From a virus (Duplodnaviria > Heunggongvirae > Uroviricota > Caudoviricetes), in the IMG/VR virus record IMGVR_UViG_2651869691_000005: DNA of 26,439 bases. One strand, written 5' to 3'. The position numbers were made by a program, and so were the translations under genes. Position 1 is the first letter of the stretch. Each line of letters begins with the position of its first letter. Under the pieces are notes generated by a model. It saw only the letters and a list, made by a program, of their open reading frames with translations. It searched no databases and was not told where the DNA came from. Below, piece after piece: positions 10,875-26,439 of this stretch.

Positions 10875-11306
10875 GGAGTTTACTCACATCTGACAAAATC
10901 AATATAAACAGCCCCTCCGGAGAGGGGCTGGAGAGTGGCGCTATGTGCCATTGCATGGTGCCGGGTGCCTCCCGGTGAATTCAGTACCAGCACCTGAATC
11001 CGCGATTATCCCATATACCTACTCGCTGATTGCCCCTCCGCACAGGGGGATTCACCATGCCAGTTTCTTTTAACAAACTCCCCGCAAACCAGACAACAGT
11101 CAACCGCCTGAATTGTGAAGTATTTAAAAATTTCTCCGGCTAACAGTCTGGCGTTTTCTTTTTCAGCAACGGGAAAGCAACAACCACCACACCCGCCACC
11201 AGTACACAGTCAGCCAGCACTGACATTATCCGGCTGCTGCAATGCCATTCACAAAAACAGTAAGCAATCACTTTTTACCGTAACAGGTGATAATCCAGAT
11301 ATGTAT

Positions 11307-11770: not shown

Positions 11771-11847
11771 TGGCGCGTTGTACTGGATTCGAACCAGTGA
11801 CCGATTGCTTAGAAGGCAATTGCTCTGTCCGGCTGAGCTAACAACGC
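11771..11847 (-). tRNA. tRNA-Arg (anticodon UCU)
   Basis: Reverse complement GCGTTGTTAGCTCAGCCGGACAGAGCAATTGCCTTCTAAGCAATCGGTCACTGGTTCGAATCCAGTACAACGCGCCA folds as a canonical cloverleaf with a TCT anticodon, TTCGAAT T-loop and encoded CCA. Confidence 0.8.
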
Positions 11848-11944: not shown

Positions 11945-12020
11945 TGGTGGCCCTTGCTGGATTTGAACCAGCGACCTGGCGATTATGAGTCGCTCGCTCT
12001 CACCACTGAGCTAAAGGGCC
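11945..12020 (-). tRNA. tRNA-Ile2 type (anticodon CAU, ileX/ileZ-like; elongator Met cannot be excluded from sequence alone)
   Basis: Reverse complement GGCCCTTTAGCTCAGTGGTGAGAGCGAGCGACTCATAATCGCCAGGTCGCTGGTTCAAATCCAGCAAGGGCCACCA; canonical cloverleaf, closely resembling E. coli ileX as recalled. Confidence 0.8.
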
Positions 12021-16112: not shown

Positions 16113-16268
16113 TTACTCCTCAGGTTCGTAAGCTGTGAAGACAGCGACCTCCGTCTGGCCGGTTCGGATTCGTACCTCGCAGAGGTCTTTCCTCGTTACC
16201 AGTGCCGTCACTATGACGGTTAAACAGATGACGATCAGGGCGATTAACATCGCCTTTTGCTGCTTCAT
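16113..16268 (-). CDS. hok: Hok/Gef-family type I toxin (51 aa; HokD/RelF-like)
   Basis: Found by manual translation (below the ORF-track size cutoff): MKQQKAMLIALIVICLTVIVTALVTRKDLCEVRIRTGQTEVAVFTAYEPEE, matching Hok/Gef family sequence as recalled. SD AAGGAG 8 nt upstream. A 19-codon upstream ORF (from 16322-16324) ends in ATGA overlap with the hok start. Confidence 0.8.
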   Translation of the reverse strand: MKQQKAMLIALIVICLTVIVTALVTRKDLCEVRIRTGQTEVAVFTAYEPEE

Positions 16269-16526
16269 AGCCTGCTTCTCCTTGACCTTTCGGTCCGTAA
16301 GAGGCTAATCTCTATGTGTCGCATAGATATGGCCTCAGATTAATGTTAAGCGTCTTGCAGGACGCGTAATGTTAACTGGGGCTTTTCTCTATCTGCCTTT
16401 TGGTGTTCATGCCTGAGACAGATAGCCTCAAGCACCCGCAGTCATTCTACTTAACTAAGATTTCCCCGCAAACCGTTTTTGTCCGGCACAGTAAATATCC
16501 AACTAAACCAATGGCGTTCGCTGTAT

Positions 16527-22780: not shown

Positions 22781-23257
22781 ATGCTTAGTGGTAAAGATTT
22801 AGGCCGAGCGATAGAGCAGGCCATTAACAAAAAAATTGCATCAGGAGCCGTCAAATCAAAGGCGGAAATCGCACGTCATTTCAAAGTCCAACCACCATCA
22901 ATCCATGACTGGATTAAGAAAGGTTCGATAAGTAAAGACAAACTTCCAGAACTATGGCGTTTCTTTTCTGATGTGGTTGGTCCAGAGCATTGGGGGCTTA
23001 ACGAATACCCCATACCAACCCCATCCACTTCAGATACAAAAAGTGAACTTTTAGACATAAACAGCCTTTATCAAGCCGCCTCTGATGAAAAAAGAGCAAT
23101 TGTGGCTTTCATCTTATCTGGAAATGCTACGGAGCCTAGTTGGGTTGATCATGACGTTCGCGCCTACATTGCCGCAATGGAAATGAAGGTAGCTAACTAT
23201 CTGAAAAATCAAGCATCAAAACGGAAAAGCCAGAACATCACCAAGACAGGAACTTAA
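22781..23257 (+). CDS. Prophage repressor (cI position; N-terminal HTH; no recognisable LexA/S24 autocleavage motifs)
   Basis: 158-aa ORF; N-terminal HTH (KSKAEIARHFKVQPPSIHDWIKKG). No Ala-Gly / Ser-Lys peptidase signature seen. Flanked by operator palindromes on both sides. Confidence 0.7.
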   Translation: MLSGKDLGRAIEQAINKKIASGAVKSKAEIARHFKVQPPSIHDWIKKGSISKDKLPELWRFFSDVVGPEHWGLNEYPIPTPSTSDTKSELLDINSLYQAASDEKRAIVAFILSGNATEPSWVDHDVRAYIAAMEMKVANYLKNQASKRKSQNITKTGT

Positions 23258-23352: not shown

Positions 23353-23394
23353 TAGGCATAGCCTATTGACAAGTAATTAGGCATTTCCTATAGT
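23353..23394 (+). promoter_or_regulatory. OL-like operator/promoter: TAGGC-N3-GCCTA palindromes overlapping a plus-strand promoter (TTGACA-17-TATAGT)
   Basis: TAGGCATAGCCTA at 23353-23365 abuts TTGACA (23366-23371); a second, imperfect site TAGGCATTTCCTA (23378-23390) lies in the spacer; -10 TATAGT at 23389-23394. Reads into the early-left genes. Confidence 0.7.
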
Positions 23395-24450: not shown

Positions 24451-24508
24451 TTTCTGGTGACGTTTGGCGGTATCAGTTTTACTCCGTGACTGGTCTGCCG
24501 CCCTTTTT
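24451..24508 (+). ncRNA. dicF: DicF sRNA homologue
   Basis: TTTCTGGTGACGTTTGGCGGTATCAGTTTTACTCCGTGACTGGTCTGCCGCCCTTTTT matches the ~53-nt E. coli DicF sequence as I recall it, with one or two substitutions. Lies in a ~550-nt noncoding stretch of the early-left operon, as dicF does in Qin. Confidence 0.7.
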
Positions 24509-24682
24509 AAAGTGAGTTTTGTGATGCGGTGAATGCGGCTGAGCGCACGCGGAACAGTTAAAACCAAAAACAGTGTTATGGGTGGGCTCTCTGTATCCGG
24601 CGTTAATTGTTAACTGGTTAACGTCACCTGGAGGCACCAGGCACCGCATCAACAAAGTTCATTTGTAAAAATGGAGATAATT

Positions 24683-24904
24683 ATGATTGCTCATCACTTC
24701 GGAACTGATGAGATTCCTCGTCAGTGCGTGACTCCCGGTGATTATGTTATTCATAAAGGAAGAACATATATTGCTTCGGTAAACAACATTAAAAAACAAC
24801 GGCTCTATATTCGTGATTTTTCCACACAACACTGTATTAAGGAAACCATGATTAAAGTCTTCCTTGGTCGTGATGGTTTACCTGTAAAAGCAGAGTCATG
24901 GTGA
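24683..24904 (+). CDS. Small protein downstream of dicF (73 aa; at the DicB/KilR position, possible cell-division inhibitor)
   Basis: ATG 24683 with SD GGAG: [73 protein letters not shown]. Does not match DicB as I recall it; function inferred from position only. Confidence 0.4.
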
Positions 24905-25027
24905 GCAGTAATAAAATAACTGCCACAATACGACATTCAGCTTAATGAATACATCAGATTTGATTCTTATATGCCAGCAATGGCAGGGATTTGTTCATCC
25001 TTAAATCTGTCATGAGGTTAAAACAAA

Positions 25028-26347
25028 ATGAGTAAAGTCTTTATTTGCGCCGCCATTCCGGACGAACAGGCAATAAAGGAAGAAGGTGCAGTTGCTGTAG
25101 CCACTGCCATTGAAGCCGGTGACGAACGCCGCGCCCGTGCCAAATTTACCTGGCAATTCCTGGAGCAATATCCGGCTGCTCAGGACTGCGCTTATAAATT
25201 TCTTATCTGCGAGGATAAACCCGGCATGCCCCGCCCTGCTATCGACTCCTGGGATACCGAATATATGCAGGAAAACCGCTGGGATGAGGAATCCGCTTCC
25301 TTTATTCCGGTCGAACCAGAATCCGAACCGATGAACGTCAATTTTGACAAACTGTCCCTTGAAGTACAGAACGCTGTCATGGTTAAGTTCGACACATGTG
25401 AAAACATCACCGTTGATATGGTGATTAGCGCGCAGGAATTGTTGCAGGAAGACATGGCAACATTCGACGGACATATCGTTGAAGCGTTGATGAAAATGCC
25501 AGAAGTTAACGCCATGTATCCGGAGCTTAAGCTGCATGCCATCGGGTGGGTTAAGCATAAATGTAAGCCTGGTGCCAAATGGCCCGAAATTCAGGCAGAA
25601 ATGCGCATCTGGAAAAAACGTCGCGAAGGTGAACGCAAGGAAACCGGAAAATACACGTCTGTTGTTGATCTCGCCCGCGCCAGAGTCCACCGACAGCACA
25701 CTGAAAACTCAGCAGAAAAAATCCCCCCTGTCACTGCAGTCATTCGTCGCGAATATAAGCAGACATGGAAAACACTGGATGACGAACTGGCCTACGCTCT
25801 CTGGCCTGGTGATGTGGATGCCGGAAACATTGACGGCAGCATCCATCGCTGGGCAAAAAATGAAGTTATCGACAACGACCGCGAAGACTGGAAGCGTATC
25901 TCGGCATCGATGCGCAAACAGCCTGATGCCCTTCGCTACGACCGCCAGACTATTTTTGGCCTTGTCCGTGAACGTCCGATCGACATTCACAAAGACCCTG
26001 TGGCACTGAACAAATACATTACTGAATACCTGACTACAAAGGGCGTGTTTGAAGATGAAGGAACAAATCAGAGCGCAACTGATACTCTCTCGTCGCCAGT
26101 ACCAGAAACTGATGCAGTGGAAACGGCAATTCCGGACAACGAAAAAACCGAATGCAAAGTGGAAGTCGAACCATCTGTAGAGCGTGAGGGGCCGTTCTAC
26201 TTCCTCTTCACCGACAAGGATGGCGAAAAATACGGTCGCGCAAACAAACTTTCTGGTCTGGATAAGGCGCTGGCTGCCGGGGCTACTGAAATCACGAAAG
26301 AAGAATATTTCGCCCGCAAAAACAGTACATACTCAGGTTCACGGTAA
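25028..26347 (+). CDS. Hypothetical acidic early-left protein (439 aa), probably C-terminally truncated by IS1 insertion
   Basis: Long ORF with SD; its TAA stop (26345-26347) lies inside the IS1 terminal repeat GGTAATGCTGCC..., so the native 3' end is probably missing. No family recognised. Confidence 0.6.
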   Translation: MSKVFICAAIPDEQAIKEEGAVAVATAIEAGDERRARAKFTWQFLEQYPAAQDCAYKFLICEDKPGMPRPAIDSWDTEYMQENRWDEESASFIPVEPESEPMNVNFDKLSLEVQNAVMVKFDTCENITVDMVISAQELLQEDMATFDGHIVEALMKMPEVNAMYPELKLHAIGWVKHKCKPGAKWPEIQAEMRIWKKRREGERKETGKYTSVVDLARARVHRQHTENSAEKIPPVTAVIRREYKQTWKTLDDELAYALWPGDVDAGNIDGSIHRWAKNEVIDNDREDWKRISASMRKQPDALRYDRQTIFGLVRERPIDIHKDPVALNKYITEYLTTKGVFEDEGTNQSATDTLSSPVPETDAVETAIPDNEKTECKVEVEPSVEREGPFYFLFTDKDGEKYGRANKLSGLDKALAAGATEITKEEYFARKNSTYSGSR

Positions 26348-26439
26348 TGCTGCCAACTTACTGATTTAGTGTATGATGGTGATTTTAAGGTGCTTGCGTG
26401 GCTTCCATTTCCATCAGATGTCCTTCCTGCTCCGCTACT
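26343..26439 (+). mobile_element. IS1 insertion sequence, left end only (continues beyond window)
   Basis: GGTAATGCTGCCAACTTACTGATTTAGTGTATGATGGTG... matches the IS1 terminal inverted repeat and leader as recalled, with several substitutions relative to the K-12 copies. The insA frame follows. Confidence 0.8.
26396..26439 (+). CDS. insA: IS1 InsA, N-terminal fragment (window edge)
   Basis: GTG at 26396 followed by ASISIRCPSCSAT, matching the InsA N-terminus (zinc-finger CPSC) as recalled. Confidence 0.7.

What the first reader, a model, noticed from the sequence alone, without database searches (positions are those of the whole stretch)
26343..26439. IS1 inserted into the early-left operon, truncating a 439-aa gene
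The window ends in the left terminal repeat and insA start of an IS1 element. The 439-aa ORF upstream uses a TAA stop that lies inside the IS1 terminal repeat, so its C-terminus has probably been replaced. The insertion may inactivate downstream early-left functions (recombination, excision) and help immobilise the prophage. The IS1 copy has several substitutions relative to the K-12 sequence as I recall it, suggesting a divergent isoform.
Basis: partly seen in the sequence, partly recalled or inferred. Interest (0 to 1): 0.5.

Follow-up and report, generated by a model that had tools for sequence, protein, structure and literature searches.

The report
IS1 insertion truncating a prophage exonuclease gene
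A common E. coli jumping gene (IS1, the IS1F variant) has landed in the middle of a prophage exonuclease gene and cut it to about half its length; this is an ordinary case of prophage decay, and the window stops inside the IS1 because the draft-genome contig ends there.

Summary
Window 26343-26439 matches the left end of K-12 IS1F at 97 of 97 bases. It holds the terminal repeat GGTAATGCTGCCAACTTACTGAT and the first 14 codons of insA.

The 439-aa ORF (25028-26347) is residues 1-438 of an 823-aa lambdoid-prophage exonuclease, plus one altered residue (Q439R). Its TAA stop is bases 3-5 of the IS1 repeat. Homology to uninterrupted alleles (99.8% DNA identity) breaks exactly at 26342|26343. The lost 385 residues carry the only recognisable catalytic domain, an Rv2179c-like 3'-5' exonuclease.

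The gene is the full-length form of K-12 ydfE, the last gene of the dicBF-type early-left operon. In relatives only xis and int follow it, then potC.

The "divergent isoform" is simply IS1F, a known variant that K-12 also carries.

The window is a whole draft contig (JHTA01000063.1). The right IS1 end, the 9-bp duplication (predicted CAGGTTCAC) and the fate of the 3' gene half, xis and int therefore cannot be seen. Polarity on excision genes is a reasonable inference but is untested.

Verdict: real, already known in kind, low interest.

The parts
25028..26347 (+). Truncated exonuclease gene, the ydfE-family and phrog_2082 type. It gives a 439-aa product: residues 1-438 of an 823-aa protein, then Q439R, then a stop supplied by IS1.
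   Evidence: ORF list. 438/439 identical to residues 1-439 of WP_061330130.1, 823 aa. phrog_2082 profile positions 1-438 of 823 are matched. Precomputed Pfam hits are YdfE_N and YdfE_C. 89% identical to K-12 YdfE over residues 1-257.
26334..26342 (+). CAGGTTCAC: the 9 bases next to the IS1 end. This is the predicted target-site duplication, of which only the left copy is visible.
   Evidence: The uninterrupted allele reads CAGGTTCAC|AACAAAAT and the window reads CAGGTTCAC|GGTAATG. IS1 makes 8- or 9-bp duplications (PMC12428005). A comparator IS1 in the same gene in strain TOE17 has the 9-bp duplication CCAGAGCCG.
26343..26439 (+). Left end of an IS1 element of IS1F type, cut off by the end of the contig.
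   Evidence: 97/97 identical to K-12 IS1F and 84/97 to IS1A. 100% matches in thousands of E. coli records annotated as IS1 or IS1F family transposase.
26343..26365 (+). IS1 left terminal inverted repeat (IRL): GGTAATGCTGCCAACTTACTGAT.
   Evidence: Single exact match to the IS1 repeat consensus in the window; none in 100 shuffles.
26398..26439 (+). First 14 codons of insA (GTG start; VASISIRCPSCSAT), in the same direction as the exonuclease gene.
   Evidence: Translation identical to the IS1F InsA N-terminus.
23366..23394 (+). Context: sigma-70-like site TTGACA-17-TATAGT upstream of the ydfA homologue. It is the likely equivalent of dicBp, the early-left promoter.
   Evidence: Consensus scan, 11 of 12 positions. 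Position by analogy with Qin dicBp. Consensus match only; not shown to be functional.
24452..24503 (+). Context: DicF small RNA gene within the same operon.
   Evidence: Rfam RF00039, 74.2 bits against a gathering score of 48.
24671..24904 (+). Context: kil (Rac KilR-type) gene immediately upstream of the exonuclease gene.
   Evidence: Precomputed Pfam PF27398 KilR on the called gene 24683-24904. Annotated kil at the same position in NZ_CP074756.1.

Best explanation
An IS1 element of the IS1F sequence type transposed into codon 439 of an 823-aa exonuclease gene. That gene is the last one before xis and int in the early-left (dicBF-type) operon of a lambdoid prophage.

Shown:
- The junction lies exactly at the first base of the IS1 left repeat.
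- The reading frame runs one residue into IS1 and stops at the TAA inside the repeat.
- The product keeps the whole N-terminal YdfE-type module.
- The product loses 385 residues: the linker, a CxxC...CxxC segment and the Rv2179c-like DEDDh 3'-5' exonuclease domain. The nuclease function is therefore lost.

Inferred:
- The insertion is simple, with the rest of IS1 (768 bp in all), a second copy of CAGGTTCAC, the 3' half of the gene, xis and int on another contig of the same draft assembly.
- The untranslated IS1 reduces early-left transcription reaching xis and int, by classical IS1 polarity. Induction would then give poor excision.
- Because insA points the same way as the operon, read-through from the prophage promoter could feed IS1 transposase expression.
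For: IS1 identity: 97/97 to K-12 IS1F, a unique repeat match and thousands of identical IS1 ends.

Exact breakpoint against a 99.8%-identical uninterrupted allele.

Protein: 438/439 identity to residues 1-439 of an 823-aa protein. The Rv2179c-like domain lies at residues 642-813 of the full-length protein. phrog_2082 has a profile length of 823, of which only positions 1-438 are matched.

Full-length copies: 17 phage records, and 3533 of 5426 complete E. coli genomes at 80% length or more.

In three related prophages the gene is followed by xis (a 61-bp gap), int and potC.

A complete IS1 with a 9-bp duplication sits 44 bp downstream in the same gene in strain TOE17, so simple IS1 insertion into this gene does occur.

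Operon structure and DicA-repressed promoter are taken from bioRxiv 10.1101/2023.04.14.536235. IS1 anatomy, the 8/9-bp duplication, IS1F as a K-12 type and the effect of upstream read-through on IS1 are taken from PMC12428005.
Against: The window is the whole contig JHTA01000063.1. Nothing beyond base 97 of IS1 is visible: no right end, no duplication, no 3' gene half, no xis or int.

Exact scans for both predicted junctions found nothing in the genome-representative and metagenome collections. The predicted 359-aa C-terminal ORF, built from the closest relative's sequence, is not in the protein collection.

Polarity of IS1 rests on classical genetics recalled from background knowledge, not on anything tested here. 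A literature search for it returned nothing useful. Antitermination or an internal promoter could bypass it.
Confidence: 0.9

Rival explanations
1. The IS1 marks a rearrangement rather than a simple insertion. Examples are an IS1-mediated adjacent deletion or inversion, or recombination between two IS1 copies. In that case the DNA beyond the IS1 is not the rest of the gene, and the 3' half, xis and int may be deleted or moved.
For: Only the left junction is visible, because the contig ends inside IS1. E. coli genomes carry a median of 10 matches to this IS1 end, so partners for recombination are available. Related prophages show compound decay of this same gene: IS1A plus IS3 in TW10573, and IS2E with loss of the gene's 3' part and a damaged intQ in K-12 Qin.
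Against: Simple insertion is the default outcome of transposition and is documented in this gene (TOE17, 9-bp duplication). Short-read contigs break at any multicopy IS, so the contig end is not in itself a sign of rearrangement.
Confidence: 0.2
2. Assembly artefact: the 97 IS1 bases were joined wrongly to the end of the contig, and the gene is intact in the real genome.
For: The junction lies at the very end of a draft contig, where graph-based assemblers can add repeat sequence.
Against: The join falls exactly on the first base of the IS1 terminal repeat, and homology to the uninterrupted allele stops at that same base. A chimeric join has no reason to respect the transposon terminus. Ending inside a repeat is what a real IS copy produces in short-read assemblies.
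Confidence: 0.02
3. The 439-aa protein is a natural stand-alone gene whose end merely abuts an IS1.
For: The retained part is almost exactly one exchangeable module. Other alleles swap the N-terminal ~453 residues for an unrelated one and share only nt 1359/1360-2472.
Against: An allele with no amino-acid difference over residues 1-438 continues for 385 more residues. The phage-family profile is 823 long. The exact 439-aa sequence occurs on a single contig in the whole protein collection. Its last residue and its stop are made of IS1 bases.
Confidence: 0.01

Closest known systems
IS1F of E. coli K-12 MG1655 (NC_000913.3 4518472-4519239; insA7/insB7)
   Same: Identical over all 97 visible bases: the left repeat beginning GGTAATG, the promoter region and the first 14 insA codons.
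   Different: Only 97 of 768 bp can be compared. The K-12 copy lies downstream of fecIR and its insB is annotated as a pseudogene. In K-12 this IS1 type transposes very rarely (PMC12428005), yet the copy here has evidently moved, or was moved in trans.
ydfE pseudogene of the K-12 Qin cryptic prophage, truncated by IS2E
   Same: Same gene at the same place, the last gene of the dicBF operon before int. It is 89% identical over residues 1-257, and it is also cut by an insertion sequence.
   Different: A different IS (IS2 rather than IS1) at a different position (residue 257 rather than 438). Qin has also lost the 3' gene part, and its int is a pseudogene. Here the downstream state is unknown.
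IS1 insertion in the same exonuclease gene in E. coli TOE17 (NZ_CP069093.1)
   Same: IS1 in the same orientation in the same gene, only 44 bp downstream. It is complete (768 bp) with the 9-bp duplication CCAGAGCCG, and it is followed by the 3' gene half, xis, int and potC.
   Different: An independent event: a different site and a different IS1 sequence type (8/97 mismatches to the window's IS1 end).
Full-length 823-aa prophage/phage exonuclease (WP_061330130.1; phrog_2082; phage mEp460 'exodeoxyribonuclease encoded by cryptic prophage CP-933P')
   Same: The N-terminal 438 residues are identical or nearly so.
   Different: The window copy lacks residues 439-823, including the Rv2179c-like 3'-5' exonuclease domain.

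Membership tests
IS1 family insertion sequence | Terminal inverted repeat beginning GGT(A/G)ATG, about 23-30 bp. | tested here: met
   Exact consensus match at 26343-26365; none in 100 shuffles. Identical to the K-12 IS1F left repeat.
IS1 family insertion sequence | insA reading frame starting about 55 bp inside the left end. | tested here: met
   GTG at 26398. The 14 visible codons are identical to IS1F InsA. The remaining 77 codons lie beyond the contig end.
IS1 family insertion sequence | 768-bp element with insB, an A6C -1 frameshift site and a right inverted repeat. | not testable with these tools
   The window (whole contig JHTA01000063.1) ends at IS1 base 97.
IS1 family insertion sequence | 8- or 9-bp direct duplication of the target. 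| not testable with these tools
   Only the left copy (CAGGTTCAC, 26334-26342) is visible. Scans for the predicted right junction found nothing in the collections available.
IS1 family insertion sequence | Empty-site allele: an uninterrupted homologue whose sequence is continuous across the insertion point. | tested here: met
   NZ_CP074756.1 is 99.8% identical up to 26342 and continues with AACAAAATACTGG.
IS1F sequence type | Sequence identity to IS1F rather than to IS1A/E, B/C or D. | tested here: met
   0/97 mismatches to IS1F and 13/97 to IS1A. This holds for the visible 97 bp only, and IS1B/C and IS1D were not compared.
ydfE-family prophage exonuclease (phrog_2082) | N-terminal YdfE_N and YdfE_C region. 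| tested here: met
   Precomputed Pfam hits PF27430 and PF27432. phrog_2082 positions 1-438 matched. 89% identity to K-12 YdfE. The local Pfam copy gave no hit; the hits are the collection's precomputed ones.
ydfE-family prophage exonuclease (phrog_2082) | C-terminal Rv2179c-like (DEDDh) 3'-5' exonuclease domain. | tested here: not met
   The domain lies at residues 642-813 of the intact protein. The window ORF ends at residue 439, so this copy is a truncated pseudogene and not a functional member.
dicBF-type early-left operon of lambdoid prophages | Gene order repressor, ydfA, ydfB, ydfC, dicF, division inhibitor, ydfE-type gene, all in the repressor's direction and ending at xis/int. | tested here: met
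   Called genes and Pfam hits, DicF, and comparison with Qin and related prophages. Here kil replaces dicB-ydfD. xis and int are not visible.
dicBF-type early-left operon of lambdoid prophages | Single repressor-controlled polycistronic transcript reaching the last gene. | not testable with these tools
   There is only a consensus promoter match at 23366-23394. Even in K-12 the longest species was not detected on Northern blots.

The most novel reading that the evidence does not exclude
Insertion sequences hit this exonuclease gene repeatedly. The cases seen are IS1F here at residue 438, another IS1 44 bp away in TOE17, IS1A plus IS3 in TW10573, IS1203 in SD134209 and IS2 in K-12. These hits might be selected rather than neutral. 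They could lock the prophage in place by blocking early-left transcription of xis and int, while keeping an intact N-terminal YdfE-type module as a domesticated stand-alone protein. The two IS1 sites lie at or within 15 codons of the natural module joint of the gene.
Probability: 0.07. Interest if true: 0.35.

Novelty: already known. Interest (0 to 1): 0.08.

Why it matters
It matters little beyond annotation.

- The ORF should be annotated as a pseudogene fragment of an 823-aa exonuclease, not as a 439-aa protein.
- The contig end is explained by a multicopy IS1.
- For this strain, the prophage may be impaired in excision if IS1 is polar on xis and int. This is a routine step in prophage domestication and is already seen for the same gene in K-12 Qin.

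Tried and rejected
(1) Extending the sequence. The exact 439-aa protein maps to a single contig that is the window itself, so no flank is available.

(2) Exact scans for the left junction and the predicted right junction in genome contigs and metagenome contigs. All four were empty. This was expected, because those collections hold one genome per species or hold metagenomes.

(3) Looking for the same junction in 5426 complete E. coli genomes. No record covers the junction in one piece. The only full-coverage hits are multi-piece, with IS1 at other sites.

(4) Exact look-up of the predicted 359-aa C-terminal ORF. This is the first ATG after the in-frame stop in the IS1 right end, built from the closest relative. 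It is not in the collection. The real allele may differ by a residue, so this says nothing either way.

(5) The search for homologous proteins was deliberately not run. It returns only cluster representatives. The relevant cluster has 2141 members, so it could not lead to the one contig of interest. The question about homologue length was already answered.

(6) Literature search for the assembly accession: no paper found.

(7) Literature search for IS1 polarity: nothing useful, so that step is marked as background knowledge.

(8) Local Pfam scan of the 439-aa ORF: no family. NCBIfam gave only a weak partial match to RecE (50 bits against a cutoff of 1269). The protein is therefore not RecE, although its middle region is related to RecE's.

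(9) PDB sequence search of the full-length protein. Only the C-terminal nuclease domain has solved relatives (8kel and 8ken, E = 1e-6 to 1e-5). There are none for the retained N-terminal part.

Full report
**1. What is at the coordinates**

The last 97 bases of the window (26343-26439) read GGTAATGCTGCCAACTTACTGATTTAGTGTATGATGGTGATTTTAAGGTGCTTGCGTGGCTTCC.... They are identical at 97 of 97 positions to the left end of IS1F of E. coli K-12 MG1655. They differ at 13 of 97 positions from IS1A, and at 8 of 97 from a third IS1 type found in strain TOE17.

The IS1 terminal-repeat consensus occurs once in the window, at 26343-26365, with no mismatch. It never occurred in 100 shuffles. A GTG at 26398 opens a frame whose 14 visible codons, VASISIRCPSCSAT, equal the IS1F InsA N-terminus. 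The same 97 bases occur at 99% identity or more in 4319 E. coli records, where they are annotated as IS1 or IS1F family transposase.

So the IS1 is real. IS1F is one of four IS1 types carried by K-12 itself (PMC12428005).

**2. The truncated gene**

ORF 25028-26347 encodes 439 aa. Codon 439 is C|GG, with its last two bases from IS1. The stop TAA at 26345-26347 is bases 3-5 of the IS1 repeat.

Against complete E. coli genomes, window 25000-26342 is 99.8% identical to an uninterrupted gene in NZ_CP074756.1 and NZ_CP074819.1. The match stops at 26342. That gene is 2472 bp, or 823 aa (WP_061330130.1, "exonuclease"). Where the window reads CAGGTTCAC|GGTAATG, the intact gene reads CAGGTTCAC|AACAAAATACTGG.

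The proteins are identical over residues 1-438 and differ only at residue 439, Q to R. The intact protein has an Rv2179c-like 3'-5' exo(ribo)nuclease domain at residues 642-813 (Pfam PF16473, E = 2.4e-67). It matches phrog_2082 end to end, positions 1-823 of 823. The window ORF matches only profile positions 1-438.

Full-length homologues exist in 17 phage records, for example mEp460 at 92% identity over residues 1-822. They also exist in 3533 of 5426 complete E. coli genomes. It is therefore not met: the gene is truncated, 385 residues are lost, and one residue is altered.

**3. What the gene is and where it sits**

The retained half carries the Pfam families YdfE_N and YdfE_C, as precomputed hits. 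It is 89% identical to K-12 YdfE over residues 1-257, after which the K-12 copy runs into IS2E. K-12 ydfE is thus itself an IS-truncated copy of the same gene.

On the + strand the window has this order:
- a 158-aa repressor-like gene (22781-23257)
- the ydfA homologue (DUF1391)
- two small ORFs at the positions of ydfB and ydfC
- DicF (24452-24503; Rfam 74 bits)
- kil
- the exonuclease gene

A cro/ydaS-like gene, ydaT and replication genes diverge on the - strand.

This is the layout of the Qin dicBF operon. That operon's polycistronic transcript starts upstream of ydfA at a DicA-repressed promoter, next to a lambda-like immunity locus (bioRxiv 10.1101/2023.04.14.536235). A strong consensus promoter match (TTGACA-17-TATAGT) lies at 23366-23394, upstream of the ydfA homologue. 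It is a consensus match only.

In three related prophages the exonuclease gene is followed after 61 bp by xis, then by an overlapping int, then by potC. "Early-left operon" is therefore an apt description. The only genes that could suffer polarity are xis and int.

**4. Limits: the window is a whole contig**

The exact 439-aa protein is recorded on one contig only, JHTA01000063.1 of GCA_001266255.1. That contig is 26439 bp long, so it is the window. The contig ends inside a multicopy repeat, as short-read assemblies typically do.

As a result, the following cannot be seen:
- the right IS1 end
- the predicted second copy of CAGGTTCAC
- the 3' half of the gene
- xis and int

Attempts to get round this all failed:
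- Exact scans for both junctions found nothing in the species-representative genome set or in the metagenome set.
- No complete E. coli genome has this junction.
- The predicted 359-aa downstream ORF, built from the closest relative, is not in the protein collection.

The junction itself is not an artefact. It falls precisely on the first base of the IS1 repeat and on the last base of homology to the empty site.

**5. Mechanism and consequences**

Shown: an IS1F-type element is joined by its left terminus to codon 439. Translation ends in the repeat. The nuclease domain is absent from the product.

Inferred, with about 75-80% confidence: this is a simple insertion, and the remainder of the locus is intact on another contig. 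Strain TOE17 gives an exact precedent. It has a complete 768-bp IS1 in the same orientation 44 bp downstream, flanked by the 9-bp duplication CCAGAGCCG, and followed by the 3' gene half, xis, int and potC.

The main rival, at about 20%, is an IS1-associated deletion or rearrangement. This is plausible because the same gene shows compound decay elsewhere: IS1A plus IS3 in TW10573, and IS2E with loss of downstream sequence in K-12 Qin.

A polar effect on xis and int is also inferred. It follows from the classical behaviour of IS1 in operons, which is background knowledge not verified here. It also follows from the short 61-bp gap to xis in relatives. It would reduce excision on induction but has not been tested.

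Because insA points the same way as the operon, read-through from the prophage promoter could raise IS1 transposase expression. Upstream transcription has been shown to do this for K-12 IS1 copies (PMC12428005).

**6. Side observation on gene architecture**

Some alleles of the exonuclease gene share only nt 1359/1360-2472 with the window-type allele. An example is WP_000102136.1, 813 aa. Their N-terminal half aligns only weakly with the window type, and only from about residue 245.

The gene is therefore built from two exchangeable modules, joined near residue 454. The window's IS1 lies 15 codons upstream of that joint, and the TOE17 IS1 lies exactly on it. The truncated product here is almost exactly the complete N-terminal module.

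In an evenly spaced sample of 60 best matches, only 5 were IS-broken, and 4 of those were K-12 derivatives. IS disruption of this gene is therefore a minority event, consistent with ordinary decay. A selected "lock-in" or domestication reading is not excluded, but nothing here supports it.

**7. Verdict**

The finding is correct in observation and in its core interpretation. It describes a routine event: an IS1 insertion that makes a prophage gene a pseudogene at the end of a draft contig. In kind it is already known. The same gene is IS-truncated in K-12, and IS1F is a catalogued isoform. Interest is low.

Noticed in passing
window 1-26439: The window is the entire contig JHTA01000063.1 of draft assembly GCA_001266255.1. 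Its right end is inside IS1. By comparison with strain 12A, its left end lies in the head-protease/portal region of the same lambdoid prophage. Both ends are probably assembly breaks at repeated sequence.
   Followed up: partly
window 24452-24503 (+): A DicF small RNA gene (Rfam RF00039, 74 bits) lies between the ydfC homologue and kil, as in the Qin dicBF operon.
   Followed up: partly
window ~24663-24904: There is a mosaic joint here. Window 1-24663 is 99.4% identical to a potC-integrated prophage of E. coli O111:H2 strain 12A, which carries dicB plus a DUF1482 gene. From ~24663 on, the window instead carries a Rac-type kil gene and matches bovine strains F2_407_2_2 and 7_33_46A at 99.8%.
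   Followed up: partly
window 16113-16437 (-): A hok/sok type I toxin-antitoxin module: the hok gene at 16113-16268 (Pfam HOK_GEF) and sok RNA at 16266-16437 (Rfam RF01794, 107 bits).
   Followed up: no
window 10900-11089 (-): A full-length match to the sRNA family STnc100 (Rfam RF02076, 132 bits), upstream of the SASA-family esterase gene and lysis region.
   Followed up: no
window 11771-11847 and 11945-12020 (-): Two prophage tRNA genes: tRNA-Arg (TCT), and a CAT-anticodon tRNA. ARAGORN calls the second Met, while the annotation of the near-identical prophage calls it Ile. They lie downstream of a DNA methyltransferase gene.
   Followed up: no
L010 2172-4613 and L011 2176-4614 versus L001 4029-6500: The exonuclease gene is modular. 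Alleles of 812-813 aa share only nt 1359/1360-2472 with the window type and have a different N-terminal half. The IS1 of strain TOE17 sits exactly on this joint, and the window's IS1 sits 15 codons upstream of it.
   Followed up: partly
L007 5079-5999 (K-12 Qin ydfE): K-12 YdfE, after which the Pfam families YdfE_N and YdfE_C are named, is the same exonuclease gene truncated at residue 257 by IS2E. PHROG family phrog_5943 (257 positions) appears to correspond to that truncated form.
   Followed up: partly
window 22781-23257 (+): The repressor-position gene (158 aa) differs in length from those of otherwise close relatives: a 238-aa LexA-family protein in strain 12A, and a 139-aa protein in F2_407_2_2. 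This suggests a swapped immunity module.
   Followed up: no
window 25028-26344, residues 245-374: The middle of the retained protein shows weak similarity to the central region of RecE (NCBIfam PRK09709 positions 270-401; 50 bits against a cutoff of 1269). RecE and this exonuclease therefore share a non-catalytic segment although their nuclease domains differ.
   Followed up: no
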